Of a stretch of 64,000 nucleotides of DNA, positions 44,074 to 64,000 are shown piece by piece. Made by a program: the position numbers and the translations under genes. The notes beneath the pieces are model-generated. The model was not told the origin of the DNA and searched no databases. It saw only the letters and a list, made by a program, of their open reading frames with translations. Position 1 is the stretch's first letter. The number at the start of each line of letters is the position of its first letter. Where the stretch lies: positions 320,001-384,000 of the forward strand of contig CAWFQB010000003.1 in NCBI GenBank assembly GCA_963817895.1. The letters run 5' to 3'. The DNA is from an uncultured Chthonomonadaceae bacterium. GTDB lineage: Bacteria > Armatimonadota > Chthonomonadetes > Chthonomonadales > Chthonomonadaceae.

Positions 44074-45371
44074 GGGACTCTCAAAGATTAAAGTATGCCA
44101 CTAAATATGGAAGAACCTGCTAATATAACGCAGGAGTGGCTCAGTGGAACTTACGGATAGTCTCAAGACCGTGTTCAGAGAAACGGCCCAGACGCTCAAA
44201 GGGAGTGCCCGCCGCCTGTTTATGGCACGCATCGTCGCAGAACTCGGCGCAGGCGGACAGCGCCGCGCCCAACGCGAACTGGGATGGAACCGCGATACGC
44301 TGCGCAAAGGCGCTCATGAATTGCGTAGCGGCTTCACCTGTGTCGATGCATTTCGCTTGCGCGGACGCAAACCCGCCGAAGCGCATTTACCGCATCTGCT
44401 TGACGACATCCGTGCCCTTGTCGATGGGCAAAGCCAGACCGATCCGCAATTTCGTAACAACCGACTTTATACCCGCTTGACGGCTGCCGAAGTGCGGCGT
44501 CAGTTGATTGCGCAAAAAGGCTATACGGACGCCGAACTACCCTGTGAGGAGAGCCTTCGGCAACGGCTTACCTTCTTGGGCTACCATCCCAAGAAGGTGC
44601 AGAAGAGCCAACCCAAAAAAAGATCGCCGAAACCGAGGCTATCTTTGACCACTTGAGCCAAGTCAATCCGCAAGCCGACGCCGATCCCCATGTGCTACGG
44701 GTGTCGCTGGATGCCAGGGCGACCGTCAAGGTAGGCGAGTATTCCCGGGGTGGCACGAACCGCGTCCAGGTCCATGCCGCCGACCATGACTTTCATCCCG
44801 ACGCCCAGGTGACGCCGGTCGGCTTGCTGTTGCCGTCTTTAGACGAACTTGCCTTGTATGCGGTGACCTCCAAGGTGACAAGTGACTGTCTGGCCGACAT
44901 TGTGCAGCATTGGTGGGAAGCCAACCGTGTCCGCTTCGCCCATATCACGACGTTGCACCTCAACCTCGACAATGGCCCGGAGTGTCAGAGCCGACGCGCG
45001 CAGTTCCTGCACCGGCTCGTGCAGTTTGTCGCCGAAACCGGACTGCGCATCCAGTTGGCGTACTATCCGCCTTACCACAGCAAGTACAATCCTATCGAAC
45101 GCTGTTGGGGCGTTGTGGAGAACCATTGGAACGGCGACTTACTCGACAGTGTAGACGCCGTAGTCAACTTTGCCCGCTCCATGACCTGGAAGGGAAAGCA
45201 CCCGCGCGTAGAGTTGCTGGAAACGACCTATGCCATCGGGGTCAAGTTGAGCCAGAAAGCCATGAAGGCTGTCGAGACACAGGTACGCCGACTACCCGGC
45301 TTGGACAAGTGGTTCGTTGAGATACGACCCGACACCGTTGCCAATGGAACAGTTTAATTCTTGAGAATCCC
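44074..45371 (+). mobile_element. ISAzo13-family insertion sequence, 1298 bp
   Basis: Imperfect IRs gggactctcaaagattaaa / tttaattcttgagaatccc; TAA on both flanks. Confidence 0.85.
44144..45357 (+). CDS. ISAzo13-family DDE transposase in two frames joined at A7G (~44615)
   Basis: SQTDPQF, RVSLDARATV..GEYSRGG, DNGPE, YYPPYHSKYNPIERCWG. Confidence 0.85.
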
Positions 45372-51900: not shown

Positions 51901-53241
51901 TCAGGGCGTTGGTATTTCCGGGTCAACGAGGGCAGTGGACACGACTGCTTGCGTCAGACGTTCGCCCTCGCGGGGCTTTGTGATGGCGCGGGGAATGAGG
52001 GGCAGCACGGGCAGAATCAGGCCGGTAAACACAGTCGTCACGATCAGCGCGAGGGTAAATCCGCCCTTCTCATACAGCCACGAACCGAACAGGTCACTGG
52101 TATCCGCCGCCAGCGCGCTGGCGGCTCCCACAAACAGGAACGCCGCGCCCTCCAATTCCGGCGGGCAGCACCGAATCAGCAGATCGTTAAAAGCGCACAA
52201 CGCCACGCTGAGGGAAACGCCGGCCAGAAACGCGATCCCATACGCCTGCGCCTGATTGTGAATCAGCAGGAAGAGGGGGCAGCCGATGATGCCCAGCAGC
52301 GTTCCCCGTAGAGCAGGGGACGCAGGGACAGGCGGGTACAAAGCAGAGTATAGGCAAACGCCGAAACCAGGGTTCCTGCTCCCAACAGCGCCATCGCGTT
52401 GCCATAAGCGGATTCGGAGAGTTTCACGGTATTGGTCAGATAAAAGAACAGCGGCGTTCCCCATCCCGGCGCGAAAGCCCAGAGAAAGACAATGAGGGCA
52501 GGCAGATAAATGGCGCGGTGTCCTGCCAGACGGCGCAGCGCATGAAGCGCGTTCTCCGGCACGGCGCGGACAAGCAGGTCGTCTTCATGGGCAAACGCGG
52601 CGCGGGGCCGGAAGAACGCGAGGGCTACCATCGGGAGGCACAGCGCGGCGGAAATCCAGAAAGCGGTATGCTGATGCGCGGCATCGGAAAGATGCCCGCC
52701 CGCCGCATTGGAAGCAATACTGATGAGGCGGGGAACTACGAGCAGGGCGACGGAGAGACGTCCGGCCATCCCGTTATACTGGCTTATGGAGGTCAGCAGG
52801 CCGTTCACCGCCGCGCCCATCCATACGGAAAACACGCCGAACAGCAGCAAACACGCTCAATACGCGCCCGTATGTGAAGGTTCCGAAACCGAGCAGGCAT
52901 AAAGAGCCGGCCATCAGCAGAGGCAGAAACAAAAAATAGCCCCGGTCGCCCCGCCCGAGAGGACGCCAGCGGTCCCGAATAAATCCAAAAGCAAAACCGA
53001 GATAAAAGGGTATGTCTATTAGCAGAGTGAACACGGAAATTTGCGGCGGCGAGAGTTTGAAGGTGTTCTTGAGCAGGAATTGAAGCGGAATTCCGTAAAC
53101 GCCGATGCTGCCGAGGTTGAACAGCAACAGCAGCAGAACGGCGTAAGCGGCAATTCGCCCGGTTTGCCGGGGGGCAATGGTGGCCGCGCCTTCCAGGGAT
53201 GCGCCTGAAGGGGCGTCAACAACATCAAGCGGAGTGGGCAT
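51901..53241 (-). CDS. MFS transporter (BT1-like); frameshifted
   Basis: Many TM segments over three overlapping ORFs; FGFIRDRW.PLG, PLFFYLTN, LFGSWLY. Confidence 0.75.
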
Positions 53242-53423
53242 GAGAAATCTCCATATTGTGCGGTAAACAAGAGAAGCAGTTGAGAAATGACGCTTTTCTA
53301 CGCTCGACGTTGAGAGTTCTCTTTAATTCAACAAAGTTCTTGTGACTCCTGCAAATTAATCTATATAATTATTCCCATCGCAAGATTGATTTTCCATTTG
53401 ATAATGTTGTCATAACAGGAAAT

Positions 53424-53497
53424 CGGCGACGGCGGGCCTCGAACCCGCGCCTTCTCCCTGAAAAGGAGATGTTCTTCGCGTTTGAAACTACGTCACC
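53424..53497 (-). tRNA. tRNA-like RNA, anticodon TTC (Glu), non-canonical D/T loops
   Basis: GGTGACG TA GTTT-CAAACGCGAA-GAAC A TCTCC-TTTTCAG-GGAGA AGGC GCGGG-TTCGAGG-CCCGC CGTCGCC G. Confidence 0.75.
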
Positions 53498-53548
53498 GGT
53501 AGAGCAATCCCAAACAAGGTAAACACAGCGGAAAGCGTCTTTATCGAA

Positions 53549-53622
53549 GGGCGGACGACGGGCCTCGAACCCATACCTCAACATTTGCAGTGTTGTGTTC
53601 TTCGCGTTTGAACTACGCCGCC
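53549..53622 (-). tRNA. tRNA-like RNA, anticodon GCA (Cys), bulged acceptor stem
   Basis: GGCGGCG TA GTTC-AAACGCGAA-GAAC A CAACA-CTGCAAA-TGTTG AGGT ATGGG-TTCGAGG-CCCGT CGTCCGCC. Confidence 0.75.
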
Positions 53623-53664
53623 ATATACATACGCGCTCTTCAACCATTTGTAAACGGGAAGGGT

Positions 53665-53739
53665 CGGCGGCGATGGGCCTCGAACCCATACCTTGAGACT
53701 TATGAGGAGCCATGTTCTTCGCGTTTAAACTACGCCGCC
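53665..53739 (-). tRNA. tRNA-like RNA, anticodon loop CTCATAA (CAT), imperfect extended anticodon stem
   Basis: GGCGGCG TA GTTT-AAACGCGAA-GAAC A TGGCTC-CTCATAA-GTCTCA AGGT ATGGG-TTCGAGG-CCCAT CGCCGCC G. Confidence 0.7.
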
Positions 53740-53762
53740 GATAGTGACCGATAGGAACTCTG

Positions 53763-54717
53763 TCACGCTGCCGCAACCGGTGGAGAAGCGGCGGCGCGGT
53801 TTTGTCGCCACACGCGCCACTGTTCCAGCGCGGCGGCGGCCAGAATGATGAAGGCCACGAACAGGTTGGATTGTTCGGGCGGGCGGTGGGTTAAAATCAG
53901 GGCGTTGCGCAGCAGGGCGATCAGCAATGCGCCCAACGCGGCTCCCAACAGGCTGCCGTCGCCCCCCGTGATGCGGATGCCGCCGACCACGCAGGCCGCA
54001 ATCACGTTCAGTTCCGCGCCCTCGCCCACAACCGATTGCGTGGTGTTGTTGAACCCCATCAGAATCAGGCCCTGCCAGTCCCGCGCACAGTCCTGACAGC
54101 AGATACGTCCACCGCTTCACGCCCCCGACGGCTATGCCCGACAGCCGCGCCGATTGCTCACTTCCGCCAATGGCAAGCGTCCACCGTCCCAACCGGGTTT
54201 GGCGGGAAAGCGAAACAAATACGCCCGTTACGACAACAAGCAGCAGCGTGGGCATCCAGCCAGTTCCCAACACGCGGAACGCATCGGGAAACGGGCCGAA
54301 GTTGCGGGCATGGGTGAGCAGGCTCGTGCCGTGCCGAAACAGCAACAGCGTGGCAAGCGTGGTCAGAATGGGCGGCAGGCGGCGGTACGTGACCAATGCG
54401 CCGTTGATACTGCCCGCAATCGCGCCCGCGCCCAACCCGCACACGACACTGAGCGGCCATGCCAATCCCGCCGCCAGCGTGAGCGCGGTCACGCAGCTTG
54501 ACAGCGCGACAATCGCCCCGACCGACAAATCCAGCCCGCCACCGAGTATTACCAGCCCCTCGCCACACGCCATGACGCCGATAAACGCGGCCTCCTGCCC
54601 CACAATGCTCAGATTGCTGCCGCCCCGAAACGAAGGAACGGTTTGCAGCATCCAGCCGCACAACAGGGCAATCAGCAGGAGGGTGGGAAACTCGCGTGGC
54701 ACAGTTCGGGAATGCAT
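53763..54717 (-). CDS. Sugar ABC transporter permease (RbsC-like); frameshift near 54070
   Basis: GGLDLSVGA, LPPILTTLAT, AIGGSEQSARLSGI, ELNVIAACVVGG. Confidence 0.88.
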
Positions 54718-54720
54718 TGT

Positions 54721-56017
54721 CTATCCCGCCTTCGCCATCACGCCCACAAACAGCAGCGCGCCCGTTTGCCGGTCACGAATGGCGTACAAAAACGGGCGGT
54801 CAAAAACAAGGTGGAACGGAGGATGGACAGGCATGGCAAGGCTGCGCGACATTATCACGGCGGTTGCGGCAGCGGCTTCCGTACCCTGTTCGTTCACCTC
54901 CACGAATGTTTTATGGATCACCTTGCTAATAAAAAGCGGGTGACGGCTCATGCCGGAAAAGTTGGCGGTCGCGTCAAACGCCGCGCCCATGCCCAGCGTG
55001 GTCAGCGGCTCGTTCAGTTCCGTGCCGTATTCGGCGCGGAAACGGGGCAGTTCCACCGTACCCGGCTGAACGAACAGGCTTGTCGTCCATTTCTGCCAGT
55101 TTTCCGGCGTGGCCTCGCTCACAATTCGGTTCAGCGACGCGCCCGGTGACGGCAGCAGCAGCAGCATATCCAGACGATTGCCCGCATATGGCAGGCTGAC
55201 CATCTGAAAGTTCGGGGTTTGATAGTAGCCGAATTTGCCGTTCGTCCGCATCATTTTGCACGTCTGCGGGTTTCCATGCGCGGGGTGAAACGGTTTTTCG
55301 GTTGTCAGTTTCGCATCGAACGGGGTTTGCCACAGCCCTTTGAAGTACACGGCGTTGATGAGCGCGGCCTCCATGCCCGCCACTTCCCGCGCGGTCACGA
55401 TTTGCGTGATTTTGTGGTTTGTGTGTTGGTCTACCCAGGCGTTGATGGATTGGGGCGCGCCCTGCAAACCGTCAATCTGCGCGTTATAAAACTGCTGCGC
55501 GCGCTGAAGAAAGTCCGGCAAAATCTCCTCCCGTTTGCGCAGCCACAGGGAATTGGCGATGTCGAGCAGGGGCGGGGTAACGGCAGACGCGGCAGGAGGC
55601 GGGCGCGTTCGGCTTTGCGGCAGGCGTTTTTTCCGGCGCGGTCAGGCTGGAAAGCAGGGCGTGACTGGATTGGTTCACGTCCTCCAGACTCATCCCGTCC
55701 AATCCGAGCGCTTTTGCCATTGCCTCCTGCGTGGTTCCCTTTGCGCCGTTGTAGGTCATTTGAAGCGCGAACGCGATGCTGACGGGCGAAATGCAGATAT
55801 TGGTATCCGCATCTTTTTTGAGTATTTCGTCGAACAGGCGAAAGCCGAACCGATTGTCGGCGTTCGCGATTTTATCCCCGGCAACGGCGGCAACGGGTTG
55901 CGAGCGCGAAGTGGAAGGCATGGACGAAGTTCCTTTCTGCGCGCGTCCCATCAGCGGAAGCGCAGCCAGACAGCAGACAGCACAAGCCGTTTTTACGCGA
56001 CCGGATTTATAGCGCAT
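54721..56017 (-). CDS. Secreted serpin; frameshift(s) near 55520-55600
   Basis: NICISPVSI, INAVYFKGLW, hinge EVNEQGTEAAAAT, FDRPFLYAI..LFVG. Confidence 0.92.
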
Positions 56018-56154
56018 TGTTCTTAGACCTTCCTGTCTTTCTCCTCGTTCTTCCTGCAACACTGTCAGCAGTTGTTCCCGACCGCGCCATTCAGGCTCGT
56101 ATTCAGGTATTTTGATGCTTTCAGACGAACGAAGTTCATGCCGACTGTTTGCTG

Positions 56155-62495: not shown

Positions 62496-62628
62496 AATTA
62501 CACCTTTTGCAAGGGGTTGAAACCCCTGTTTATATGGCGTTCTACTAGATTTTATCGGATGCTGTTTCAATCTACAATTCACTACCGGAAAAAGGCTAAC
62601 ATTGCAGATTCATTTAGAAGGAGAGAAC

Positions 62629-63719
62629 ATGCGCGCAAGTGTGATACAGACAATGAGGTTTGGGAAACTGCTGACCGGATTCGGATTGGCGATGCTGACA
62701 TTGGGTGGGTGCAGCAAGGAAGAACCCGCTTCCAACAATGCCGCCACGCCCGCGCCAATGAAAACGGCGGACAAGGGCAATCCGACCGCAACGCCCGACA
62801 CAAACGGCAAGAAGAAGATTCTGTTCGTGTTCAAAGTGGGCGGAATTTCCTACAGCACAGCCTGCGAAGCGGGCGCGAAGCAGGCCAACGACGATACCAG
62901 CCTGAACGCGGAAGTGGATTATCAGGCGTCCACCGAGGGCACGGCGGAAAAGCAGAACGACATTATCGAGCAGGCGATTGTGTCCAAAGTGGACGCGATT
63001 GTCGTATCCCCCGTGGATGCCAACGCCATCGTTCCCGTGCTGAACAAAGCCGCCGACGCGGGCATCAAAGTGTTTACGTGGGACGCGGACTCGCCAGGCA
63101 AGCAAGCGATTGTTCTATTTCGCGGCTGTGGATGATGTTAAAATCGGGGCGGATGTCGCGGACGCGCTTGCCAATTCGGTGGACGCGAAGGGCAAAGTGC
63201 TGCTGGTCAGCGGGCATCAAACGGCGGAAAACCTGAACCTGCACCTGAAAGGGATGCAGGAGGGTTTCAAGAAGTACCCCAACATCAAAGTGGTCACGCC
63301 CACCATTTACAACGACGACGATCTCGAATCAGGCCAAATCCAAAACCCTGACCGCGCTGCAGGCCGACTCGGATGTGGTTGGAATCGCCTGCGCCAACTC
63401 CGTCAGCCCGCACGGCGCGGGCGAAGCCGTGAAAACGGCGGGCAAAATCGGCAAAATCAAGGTGTGGGGATTGGGCCTGCCGAGCGAAAACAAGCCGTAT
63501 CTGATGGACGGCTCCGTGACCGGCCTGTACCTGTGGGACCCGAAACAACTAACCTACGTCACCGCCAAACTGGTACGCGCCGCGCTGGACGGCAAAATGC
63601 CTGCCGATGGCGACAGCGTAGACGGCGTGGAGGGCAAACTTCAGGTAAAGGACCAGATCGTCACCCTGCCCCTCCGTCTGGAAATCAACAAAGACAACGT
63701 AGAGAAGATGACGTTTTAG
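62629..63719 (+). CDS. Sugar ABC substrate-binding lipoprotein (LsrB/RhaS-like); frameshifted
   Basis: LGGC lipobox, VDAIVVSPVD, GIKVFTWDAD, GLGLPS, LWDP. Confidence 0.85.
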
Positions 63720-63754
63720 AGTGGCAGTATTGTGGTTGGCCTGTGAGTACCTCT

Positions 63755-63801
63755 ACAAAACCTCCCTCACTGACGATTTTGCCAGTGAGGGAGGTTTTGC
63801 A
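63755..63801. terminator. Strong hairpin after the binding-protein gene
   Basis: caaaacctccctcactg ... cagtgagggaggttttg. Confidence 0.65.
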
Positions 63802-64000
63802 GGGACAAGAAGAGCGTCCAACCGTCGTAATCGCGGTTAATGTTTCGTGCCGCCTAACAGCCGGTAGAACCTGGAGGTTTCCACATGGATTTTTTCTACA
63901 GCCTTCAATCCGTCTTCAGCCTTCTTACGCATATCTCGATAAGTAGCCGATTTCGTGCTCAGATTAGGCACTTGCAAGGCGACCTGAATCTCACTCAGGC

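What the first reader, a model, noticed from the sequence alone, without database searches (positions are those of the whole stretch)
53424..53739. Tandem array of three tRNA-like RNAs: one shared non-canonical body, three different anticodon arms
Seen: three ~74-nt minus-strand cloverleaves separated by unique 40-50 nt spacers. They share near-identical acceptor stems (GGYGRCG), the same D-loop core AAACGCGAA (no G18G19) and the same T-arm (GGG-TTCGAGG-CCC). Their anticodon arms are unrelated, and two are perfectly paired. Loops read CAT, GCA and TTC; none encodes CCA. Established: ordinary Met/Ile, Cys and Glu tRNAs do not share a body, and G18G19 is needed for the canonical elbow. Inference: a paralogous tRNA-mimic family with a constant scaffold and a variable anticodon cassette, repeat/spacer-like in logic. 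Possible roles are decoy or substrate for anticodon nucleases or RNA repair (as with YrlA/Ro60/RtcB loci), or non-ribosomal aminoacyl donors (Glu-tRNA is used by LanB, Cys-tRNA by PEARL enzymes). No partner gene is evident here; the neighbours are a permease and an MFS transporter.
Basis: partly seen in the sequence, partly recalled or inferred. Interest (0 to 1): 0.9.

Follow-up and report, generated by a model that had tools for sequence, protein, structure and literature searches.

The report
Irregular tRNA trio sharing one body
Three neighbouring tRNA genes in a soil Armatimonadota genome are recent copies of one odd-shaped tRNA whose anticodon arm was rewritten, a curious young offshoot of a known kind of tRNA evolution whose use is untested.

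Summary
ARAGORN and Rfam both call three minus-strand tRNAs at 53424-53739 (TTC, GCA, CAT). They share one body and a D loop in which a C splits the usual GG.

They score 40-50 bits, against 56-75 for this genome's housekeeping tRNAs. The genome has separate normal Glu, Cys and Met tRNAs.

The family is very young and narrow. It was found in 2 of 3 species of one Chthonomonadaceae genus, in none of the other Armatimonadota genomes searched, and in no phage or viral contig. Contigs from four public runs carry related arrays with other unit orders and other arms.

Stems covary: 9 of 21 pairs change on both sides. The Glu unit keeps the main GluRS determinants. The UGC and CAT arms look like mutated Glu arms.

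Best reading (about 0.5): tandem duplication of a Glu-like founder, then anticodon remoulding, giving dispensable extra tRNAs of doubtful ribosomal use.

No partner gene was found: no LanB and no extra synthetase shared by both carriers. TROVE and RtcB do not track the array. No RNA data exist.

The "tRNA-mimic cassette" idea is not excluded but has no support. Interest is moderate.

The parts
53665..53739 (-). Unit 1, irregular tRNA with CAT anticodon (53702-53704). Its arm at 53694-53712 is two bases longer than standard and has two internal mismatches.
   Evidence: ARAGORN 53662-53740 Met(cat). Rfam tRNA 39.6 bits, with the anticodon arm left unaligned.
53549..53622 (-). Unit 2, irregular tRNA with GCA anticodon (53586-53588). 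It has a perfect 5-bp anticodon stem (arm 53579-53595) and one extra base in the 3' acceptor strand.
   Evidence: ARAGORN Cys(gca). Rfam tRNA 44.1 bits, with a gap in the acceptor stem.
53424..53497 (-). Unit 3, irregular tRNA with TTC anticodon (53460-53462). It has a perfect anticodon stem (arm 53453-53469) and a 4-nt variable loop. It is the best-conserved unit.
   Evidence: ARAGORN Glu(ttc). Rfam 49.5 bits. 92% identical to the first unit of the sister species G002.
53623..53664 (-). Spacer between units 1 and 2 (42 nt). It is unique.
   Evidence: It has no match in G002 and many differences in the environmental contigs (table 3).
53498..53548 (-). Spacer between units 2 and 3 (51 nt). It is unique.
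   Evidence: It has no match in G002 and is the most variable stretch in the laid contigs (table 3).
53725..54717 (-). Upstream ABC-type permease ORF (330 aa). As assembled, its frame ends inside unit 1, so no intergenic promoter space is left.
   Evidence: ORF list. Pfam BPD_transp_2, E 6.8e-22. Orthologues precede the array in G002 and exist without an array in G001.
52263..53241 (-). Downstream BT1/MFS transporter gene, split into two overlapping ORFs. It is not syntenic with G001 or G002.
   Evidence: Pfam BT1/MFS_1 on 52263-52850. No tblastx match to the G001 or G002 loci.

Best explanation
This is a young, lineage-specific cluster of supernumerary, structurally irregular tRNA genes.

Origin. 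One founder, most like a tRNA-Glu, was duplicated in tandem behind a permease gene. Copies then changed acceptor class by mutation of the anticodon arm (alloacceptor 'remoulding'). Recombination between copies kept the bodies alike.

Expression (inferred). The units are probably transcribed by read-through from the permease gene. They would then be cut out by RNase P and 3' processing and given CCA after transcription, like most tRNAs of this genome.

Charging (inferred). Glu, Cys and Met synthetases read mainly the anticodon. So at least the Glu unit, and perhaps the Cys and CAT units, could be charged.

Use (inferred). Their work on the ribosome is at best auxiliary. The D loop, the variable length of the anticodon stem and the acceptor bulge all depart from the standard shape, and the cluster is dispensable within the genus.

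Shown here: the genes, their relatedness, the covariation, the narrow spread and the turnover of array content.

Inferred: transcription, processing, charging and any role in decoding.
For: 1. They are real tRNA-shaped genes. Two independent detectors call all three. The invariant tRNA positions can be read directly from the sequence: U8, A14, A21, U33, purine 37 and the T loop TTCGA.

2. The structure is maintained.
- On the 6-sequence alignment, 93% of cells pair, against 81% in shuffles.
- 9 of 21 pairs change on both sides, including all 5 anticodon-stem pairs. 0 of 500 shuffles reach this, and slid controls give 1-4 such pairs.
- The Glu unit is 92% identical between G000 and G002, while the spacers do not align at all.

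3. Duplication plus mutation is visible.
- The partial UGC unit of G002 differs from the Glu arm by three loop changes, one compensated stem pair and one pair turned to a G-U wobble.
- The CAT arm shares the Glu arm's 5' strand plus a 2-base insertion.

4. Homogenisation is visible. Around the 5' T stem, units of one genome resemble each other more than their counterparts in the other genome (columns 52-60).

5. The Glu unit looks chargeable. It carries U34, U35, C36, A37, U11-A24, U13-G22 and a 4-nt variable loop. These are listed as major E. coli GluRS determinants in PMC9976931 (passages). Its anticodon loop is identical to that of the host's normal tRNA-Glu.

6. The Cys unit has G2-C71, C3-G70 and GCA, and U73 in G002. 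Its loop equals the host's tRNA-Cys loop.

7. An anticodon alone can confer methionine acceptance in E. coli (PMC9976931, passage).

8. The array is accessory and unstable.
- It is present in 2 of 3 species of the genus. G001, which is 97% complete, keeps the permease but has no array.
- Synteny breaks exactly at the array.
- Environmental contigs show other orders and other arms (tables 5, 5c, 7, 8).

9. Normal Glu, Cys and Met tRNAs exist elsewhere in the genome.
Against: - G18 and G19 are separated by a C in every copy. Only 4 of 67 ARAGORN calls in this genome lack GG there: the three units plus one other oddity.
- Anticodon stems are 4 bp in the Cys unit of G002 and in contigs of runs X3 and X4. 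They are 5 bp in units 2 and 3, and 6 positions with 2 mismatches in unit 1. Ribosomal tRNAs consistently have 5 bp (PMC7609411, passage).
- The Cys unit has 8 bases in its 3' acceptor strand in both species.
- Some identity elements are missing. Unit 2 of G000 has C73, not U73. Unit 1 has G73, not A73. The UGC unit has C3, so it lacks the G3-U70 pair that AlaRS needs.
- Rfam scores of 34-51 bits lie below the 56-75 bits of the housekeeping tRNAs.
- No promoter-like site lies directly upstream.
- The assembly has many split genes, so single-base details of G000 alone are unsafe.
- The covariation test rests on six related sequences, and the tested structure was read from them.
Confidence: 0.5

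Rival explanations
1. These are non-translational tRNA-shaped RNAs with a dedicated job. One scaffold would be kept off the ribosome by its altered elbow and arm lengths, and it would display authentic anticodon loops. Such RNAs could act as bait or sponge for toxins that cut or modify anticodon loops, or as private aminoacyl donors for a tRNA-dependent transferase.
For: - The anticodon loops equal the host's Glu and Cys loops, while the stems and bodies differ.
- The elbow and stem lengths are non-standard, yet the structure is kept by covariation.
- The anticodon repertoire turns over quickly between close relatives.
- There are precedents. Irregular tRNA polycistrons and allo-tRNAs have diverse anticodons, and some are inactive in translation and were suggested to go with toxin-antitoxin systems (PMC5389517, passages). 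Staphylococcal tRNA-Gly species are dedicated to the cell wall and escape EF-Tu (PMC9976931, passage).
Against: - No candidate partner lies next to the array.
- No LanB-type domain was found in G000, G001 or G002, although that search's control genomes were also silent.
- GluRS and CysRS counts show no extra copy shared by both array carriers: GluRS 1, 1 and 2 loci, CysRS 1, 1 and 1, in G000, G001 and G002.
- TROVE is found in G000 and G001 but not G002. RtcB is found in G001 and G002 but not G000. Neither tracks the array.
- The family is confined to one genus.
Confidence: 0.2
2. These are decaying duplicates: redundant tRNA copies drifting to pseudogenes. The shared body would simply reflect their recent origin.
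For: - Scores are low: 39.6-49.5 bits here and 34.4 bits for the Cys unit of G002.
- Unit 1 has mismatches in its arm, the Cys units have an acceptor bulge, and several identity elements are missing.
- The array is absent from G001.
- The normal tRNAs are present elsewhere.
Against: - Spacers have diverged beyond alignment, while the units stay 80-92% alike.
- Anticodon stems change by compensated substitutions.
- All the invariant tRNA positions named above are intact in every copy; only the G18-G19 doublet is split by a C.
- The same oddities recur in independent assemblies: the G-C-G loop, and the 4-bp Cys stem in G002 and in runs X3 and X4.
Confidence: 0.2
3. This is a tRNA set brought in by a phage or other mobile element, for example as counter-defence against tRNA-cutting host systems.
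For: - The array sits at a synteny break. A transposase, an RNase H-like gene and a YhcG-type nuclease gene lie 5-9 kb downstream.
- tRNA arrays are discussed as anti-defence cargo (PMC12803027, search listing only).
Against: - The pattern scan of viral contigs gave 5 stretches, and ARAGORN found no tRNA in any of them.
- BLAST against 50,697 phage records gave only a 57-nt, 81% match to one phage tRNA-Gly.
- No integrase or phage gene is adjacent.
- In G000, in G002 and in contigs of runs X1 and X4, the array stands at the end of the same chromosomal permease gene.
Confidence: 0.05

Closest known systems
Polycistrons of irregular tRNAs and allo-tRNAs of soil bacteria (Mukai et al. 2017, PMC5389517; reviewed in PMC7609411)
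   Same: Both are clusters of non-standard tRNAs in soil bacteria. Both have one scaffold type carrying many different anticodons, some members are probably not used in translation, and the function is unknown.
   Different: Allo-tRNAs have 8/4 or 9/3 acceptor/T stems and a long variable arm with serine identity. The units here are 7/5 with a 4-5-nt variable loop, and their oddity lies in the D loop and the anticodon-stem length. The published cases are attributed mainly to Acidobacteria, Clostridia and Proteobacteria. This one is in Armatimonadota.
Alloacceptor tRNA remoulding and anticodon shifts (PMC4783518 for mitochondria, PMC3923123 for eukaryotes; search listings only)
   Same: A duplicated tRNA gene changes its anticodon. 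[quoted passage not shown]
   Different: The classic cases change one to three bases and often replace the original gene. Here the copies stay in tandem and whole anticodon stems are rewritten with compensation. The normal tRNAs are kept, and the setting is a bacterial chromosome.
Supernumerary tRNA gene arrays (L-arrays; Santamaria-Gomez et al. 2021, PMC8421152, abstract only)
   Same: Both are extra tRNA genes beside a housekeeping set, and both are dispensable and patchy among relatives.
   Different: L-arrays hold up to 43 different tRNAs with different bodies and spread horizontally. This genome has such an array elsewhere (C4:227906-230044). The trio described here is three copies of one body.
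Non-proteinogenic tRNA-Gly of Staphylococcus (as summarised in PMC9976931)
   Same: Both are extra isoacceptors with altered conserved elements that could keep them out of translation.
   Different: Those serve Fem-type peptidoglycan transferases and all carry glycine anticodons. No such partner or single amino acid is evident here.
YrlA / Y RNA with Ro60 and RtcB
   Same: Both involve a tRNA-like fold.
   Different: No Rfam family other than tRNA matches. TROVE and RtcB genes are not nearby and do not co-occur with the array.

Membership tests
tRNA (Rfam RF00005) | Cloverleaf that passes the curated score | tested here: met
   49.5, 44.1 and 39.6 bits against a cut-off of 29. ARAGORN calls all three.
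tRNA (canonical elongator shape) | Adjacent G18 G19 in the D loop, which pair with positions 55 and 56 of the T loop | tested here: not met
   The D loop reads AAACGCGAA in all copies, with the Gs split by a C. Only 4 of 67 tRNA calls in this genome lack GG there.
tRNA (canonical elongator shape) | 5-bp anticodon stem with a 7-nt loop, U33 and purine 37 | tested here: inconclusive
   Units 2 and 3 meet it. Unit 1 has a longer, mismatched arm. The Cys unit of G002 and of runs X3 and X4 has 4 bp. The loops themselves are standard.
tRNA-Glu (E. coli-type GluRS identity, PMC9976931) | U34 U35 C36 A37, U11-A24, U13-G22, and no residue 47 | tested here: met
   Read directly from unit 3 and its G002 counterpart. 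The weak determinant U2-A71 is absent (G2-C71). Charging itself was not tested.
tRNA-Cys (bacterial CysRS identity, PMC9976931) | U73, G2-C71, C3-G70 and the GCA anticodon | tested here: inconclusive
   G2-C71, C3-G70 and GCA are present. The discriminator is T in G002 but C in G000. There is an extra base in the 3' acceptor strand.
tRNA-Ala | G3-U70 pair | tested here: not met
   The UGC unit of G002 has C at position 3. The unit is cut by the contig end.
allo-tRNA (Mukai et al. 2017) | 12-bp acceptor branch arranged 8/4 or 9/3, and a long variable arm | tested here: not met
   The arrangement is 7/5 with a 4-5-nt variable loop.
Long tRNA arrays (L-arrays) | Long runs of different tRNA genes, up to 43, spread by horizontal transfer | tested here: not met
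   There are three units of one body. No member was found outside one genus.
Alloacceptor remoulding | A tRNA closer to a paralogue of another anticodon than to same-anticodon tRNAs of the genome | tested here: met
   The units score 79-95 bits on their own model. The best ordinary tRNA in the 42 family genomes scores 54 bits, and the best in the phylum sample scores 60 bits. Alignments to the host's Glu and Cys tRNAs share little beyond the anticodon loop, the T-loop core and scattered conserved positions.
YrlA / Ro60-associated tRNA-like RNA | A neighbouring or co-occurring Ro60 (TROVE) gene | tested here: not met
   TROVE hits are in G000 (another contig) and G001 but not G002. None lies in the window.

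The most novel reading that the evidence does not exclude
The trio is one instance of a fast-evolving 'one scaffold, many anticodon arms' system. In this reading, a tRNA body with a rebuilt elbow (G-C-G D loop) is kept off the ribosome and displays authentic anticodon loops. The array's content turns over between close relatives because it tracks an arms race with anticodon-targeting toxins, or because it feeds an unrecognised tRNA-dependent transferase.
Probability: 0.12. Interest if true: 0.8.

Novelty: new variant of a known kind. Interest (0 to 1): 0.4.

Why it matters
If the main reading is right, this is a rare bacterial snapshot of tRNA genes changing amino-acid class while still side by side, with intermediates preserved.

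It shows which synthetase classes allow such jumps: those that read the anticodon. It also offers a natural scaffold that tolerates arm replacement, which may interest people who design orthogonal tRNAs.

On the practical side, automatic counts of Glu, Cys and Met tRNAs in these genomes include genes that may not decode.

If the bolder reading is right, it would add a new class of tRNA decoys or private aminoacyl carriers.

Tried and rejected
- No RNA holder listed. Expression therefore could not be examined.
- Covariance model R1 used RNAalifold's automatic structure, which was not a cloverleaf. I dropped it and built R2 with the cloverleaf given by hand.
- The pattern was faulty. It did not match the window's own units, so that search says nothing. 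One search repeated it correctly.
- The genome-contig scan gave 4 stretches. One is the sister species. ARAGORN finds no tRNA at the other three matches.
- The metagenome-contig scan gave 37 stretches. I judged them only by the printed flanks; none has the family's 5' half. L017 is tRNA-like but different. I did not run ARAGORN on these.
- The viral-contig scan gave 5 stretches and no tRNA. Phage BLAST gave one short tRNA-Gly match.
- Partner searches in G000, G001 and G002:
  - LanB N and C domains gave no hit, but the control genomes were silent too.
  - GluRS and CysRS show no extra copy shared by both array carriers.
  - TROVE and RtcB show no co-occurrence with the array.
- The promoter and terminator scan found nothing just upstream of the array. 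One terminator-like hit is simply the anticodon hairpin of unit 3 read on the other strand.
- A 135-aa ORF (53369-53776, minus strand) spans the array. I rejected it as a gene because it is made of the tRNA units, and the unit order differs in G002.
- An alternative register for unit 1 gives a 4-bp stem and a loop reading UCA. I rejected it because it puts C at position 33 and U at position 37 (by eye; ARAGORN's structure is).
I dropped that step, and the R2 ranking stands in for it.
- Earlier notes of this scan held nothing on this locus or on look-alikes.
- The 2026 preprint on three bacterial tRNA-mimic families concerns other RNAs (abstract only).
- Searches for print on such clusters found no description of a G-C-G D loop or of shared-body tRNA trios in Armatimonadota. 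These searches cover only the held library.

Full report
**What is there**

ARAGORN finds three tRNA genes in the whole 64-kb window. All are on the minus strand inside the flagged interval: 53423-53498 Glu(ttc), 53549-53622 Cys(gca) and 53662-53740 Met(cat). Rfam's tRNA model is the only family that passes its gathering score in the window, and it does so three times, at 49.5, 44.1 and 39.6 bits.

Each unit folds into a cloverleaf as its minimum-energy structure. The repeat finder recovers the shared 5' halves and T arms. The spacers of 42 and 51 nt are unrelated to each other.

The shared body has these parts:
- a GGYGRCG acceptor strand;
- a G-U-U-Y D stem;
- the D loop AAACGCGAA, with one more base in unit 3;
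- a 4-5-nt variable loop;
- a GGG / TTCGAGG / CCC T arm.

- The D loop still has two Gs, but a C separates them.
- Missing CCA is normal in this genome. In a rough test, 20 of 67 calls have CCA at or just after the end.
- Unit 2 has an extra base in its 3' acceptor strand, and unit 1 has an over-long, mismatched anticodon arm.

**How odd are they for this genome?**

The window lies in a 7.48-Mb, 14-contig assembly with 81% estimated completeness. ARAGORN tRNAs in it.

Separate, ordinary-looking Glu(TTC), Glu(CTC), Cys(GCA), initiator and elongator-type Met tRNAs exist. They score 57.5-70.3 bits with the same Rfam model. The 38 matches in 14 other tRNA loci run from 42.7 to 75.1 bits. The trio therefore sits at the bottom of the range.

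Only 4 of 67 calls lack GG in the D-loop region: the trio and one other irregular tRNA.

Several standard anticodons are missing from the assembly, for example Gly-TCC, Leu-TAA and Arg-ACG. So the lack of a third ordinary CAT tRNA says nothing about whether unit 1 is needed.

Many genes in the window are split between adjacent frames: a serpin, a transposase and a binding protein. Single-base indel errors are therefore likely, and single-base features seen only in G000 should be treated with care.

**Spread**

BLAST of the locus against 41 genomes (G000 and 40 relatives) hits only G000 and one sister species, G002. G002's contig title names an uncultured Chthonomonadaceae bacterium (L007).

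I built a covariance model on the cloverleaf (R2) and ran it over all 42 genomes of the family.
- It gives 79-95 bits for the three units of G000 and the two complete units of G002.
- The next best hit scores 54 bits. It is an irregular Trp(cca)-like gene of another genus, with a similar acceptor and D stem but another D loop (L053).
- Below that come ordinary tRNAs; six of the next-best loci inspected carry tRNA-Lys or tRNA-Gly.

Across 151 genomes sampled from the phylum, nothing outside G000 exceeds 60 bits. The five best loci inspected are ordinary Gly, Ala and Asp tRNAs.

A pattern for the 5' half matches 2 of 401 phylum genomes, namely G000 and G002. An earlier version of that pattern was faulty and is void.

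Exact-pattern scans gave no further members:
- The GTDB species collection gave only G002 as a true member.
- The JGI metagenome collection gave none, judged by eye.
- IMG/VR gave none.
- Phage records gave only a short tRNA-Gly match.

**The sister species and environmental relatives**

In G002 the array follows the orthologous permease gene, which is 79% identical over most of its length. It reads Glu(TTC), Cys(GCA), and then a unit with a UGC anticodon that is cut by the contig end.

G001, the third species of the genus (97% complete, 3 contigs), has the permease and the serpin upstream of it but no array. Its synteny with G000 stops exactly at the permease's 3' end.

Seventeen public runs hold small parts of the stretch. 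I laid four of them. Their contigs are 80-95% similar and show other arrangements:
- In X1, the unit next to the permease carries the Glu arm. A further unit has a different 26-letter arm, and another unit runs into yet another arm.
- In X4, one contig has a Glu unit, then a 37-nt spacer, then a unit 1-like unit, then a Cys unit. It differs from the window at 11 letters and 1 gap over 195 positions.
- In X3 and X4, the Cys arm has the same 4-bp stem as in G002.

So the scaffold is constant, while the number, order and anticodons of the units change among close relatives. Contig depths are low (2-14), and only difference tables were available.

**Is the structure under selection?**

I tested the cloverleaf on the six-sequence alignment.
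- 93% of cells pair, against 81% in shuffles.
- 9 of 21 pairs change on both sides, including all five anticodon-stem pairs.
- 0 of 500 shuffles reach the observed values, and slid controls give 1-4 such pairs.

The Glu unit is 92% identical between the two species. The Cys-type units are about 80% identical. The spacers do not align.

The test is small, the sequences are related, and the structure was read from them. It argues against free decay but does not prove function.

**How the arms arose**

The UGC arm of G002 is the Glu arm with three loop substitutions, one compensated stem pair and one pair turned to a G-U wobble. The CAT arm shares the Glu arm's 5' strand with a two-base insertion.

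Around the 5' T stem, units within one genome resemble each other more than their counterparts across genomes. This suggests exchange between copies.

The arms are not copies of the host's ordinary Glu or Cys arms: only the 7-nt loops agree.

This favours duplication, point mutation and homogenisation. It does not favour insertion of ready-made cassettes.

**Could they be charged?**

I compared the units with the identity sets compiled in PMC9976931 (passages and Table 1 rows seen).
- The Glu unit has U34, U35, C36, A37, U11-A24, U13-G22 and a 4-nt variable loop. These are the major GluRS determinants in E. coli.
- The Cys unit has G2-C71, C3-G70 and GCA. It has U73 in G002 only.
- For methionine, the CAU anticodon alone can suffice in E. 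coli. Unit 1, however, has G73 and a poor stem.
- The UGC unit lacks G3-U70, so AlaRS should ignore it.

All three anticodons in G000 belong to synthetases that read the anticodon strongly. That fits a history of successful class jumps. None of this was tested biochemically.

**Partners and context**

The upstream ORF is a BPD_transp_2 permease. As assembled, its frame ends inside unit 1. No promoter-like site lies between them, so read-through transcription is the simplest guess.

Downstream lie BT1/MFS fragments. Further on are a DUF2961 gene, a YhcG-type nuclease, an RNase H-like gene and a split transposase. This region is not shared with G001 or G002.

The partner searches across G000, G001 and G002 gave the following:
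- LanB-type domains were not found in any of the three genomes, but the control genomes were silent too.
- GluRS and CysRS show no extra copy shared by both array carriers.
- TROVE (G000 and G001) and RtcB (G001 and G002) do not follow the array.

**Comparison with what is known**

The nearest described things are these:
- Polycistrons of irregular tRNAs, and allo-tRNAs with many anticodons on one scaffold, found in soil bacteria (PMC5389517, passages; PMC7609411, section 7 and passages). These differ in fold: 8/4 or 9/3 stems and a long variable arm.
- Alloacceptor remoulding and anticodon shifts (PMC4783518 and PMC3923123, listings only).
- Supernumerary tRNA arrays (PMC8421152, abstract). 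G000 carries an example of these elsewhere.

The trio fails the defining tests for allo-tRNAs, L-arrays and Ro60-linked RNAs. It meets the definition of remoulded paralogues.

**Verdict**

This is a real, unusual but small and young tRNA gene cluster. It is most likely the product of tandem duplication and anticodon remoulding of a Glu-like founder, and its use is uncertain (about 0.5).

A dedicated non-translational role (about 0.2) and plain decay (about 0.2) remain open. A phage or mobile origin is unlikely (about 0.05).

It is a new variant of a known kind, of moderate interest.

Noticed in passing
G000:C4:227906-230044 (locus L097, outside the window): A dense array of tRNA genes with different bodies and anticodons: 16 ARAGORN calls in 2.1 kb, with Rfam scores of 45.7-72.9 bits. 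It holds the assembly's only Phe(GAA) call and an Ile(TAT). It looks like a supernumerary tRNA array of the horizontally spread kind.
   Followed up: partly
G000:C1:603042-603212 (L102 / L111 1509-1679); G002:C49:587867-587941 (L112): This is a second irregular pair. The first is a Val(gac)-like unit without GG in the D loop and with an aberrant T loop. The second has an 8-bp acceptor stem, the D loop AAACGGAA (the trio's loop without the extra C) and a degenerate anticodon arm. The second unit is 96% conserved in G002 while its flanks have diverged. It is absent from G001.
   Followed up: partly
G000:C11:90528-90599 (L103 129-200): A well-formed 72-nt tRNA with a CTA (amber-reading) anticodon, which ARAGORN labels Pyl. 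Rfam tRNA scores it 53.8 bits. It may be a suppressor tRNA.
   Followed up: no
G000:C4:876822-876893 (L109 223-294): Rfam calls a third tRNA-like element (42.7 bits) between the Ile(GAT) and Ala(TGC) genes. ARAGORN does not call it.
   Followed up: no
G000:C1:1103621-1103693 and 1114773-1114844: Two Val(cac) calls lie 11 kb apart and share their 3' halves, but the first has an aberrant 5' half. This is the pattern left by an element integrated into a tRNA gene.
   Followed up: no
G000:C14:153206-153479 (L104): Another adjacent pair of odd tRNA calls, Tyr(gta) of 81 nt and Ala(cgc) of 77 nt. Only one of them passes Rfam's cut-off (50.4 bits).
   Followed up: no
window 54721-56062, 44144-45357, 62602-63946: A serpin, an ISAzo13-type transposase and a periplasmic binding protein are each split into two adjacent ORFs. 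The assembly seems to carry many frameshift errors, or else real pseudogenes.
   Followed up: partly
window 53766-53779 and 54861-54874: A perfect 14-nt inverted repeat brackets the permease gene, with 1081 nt between the arms. It is unexplained.
   Followed up: no
L053 1501-1642 (G048:C229): In another genus of the family, two abutting 72-nt tRNA-like genes (Trp cca-like and Ser gga-like) lie just upstream of a 454-aa ORF. The first shares the trio's acceptor and D stem but has A at position 33, a GG-containing D loop and a T loop with A at position 56.
   Followed up: partly
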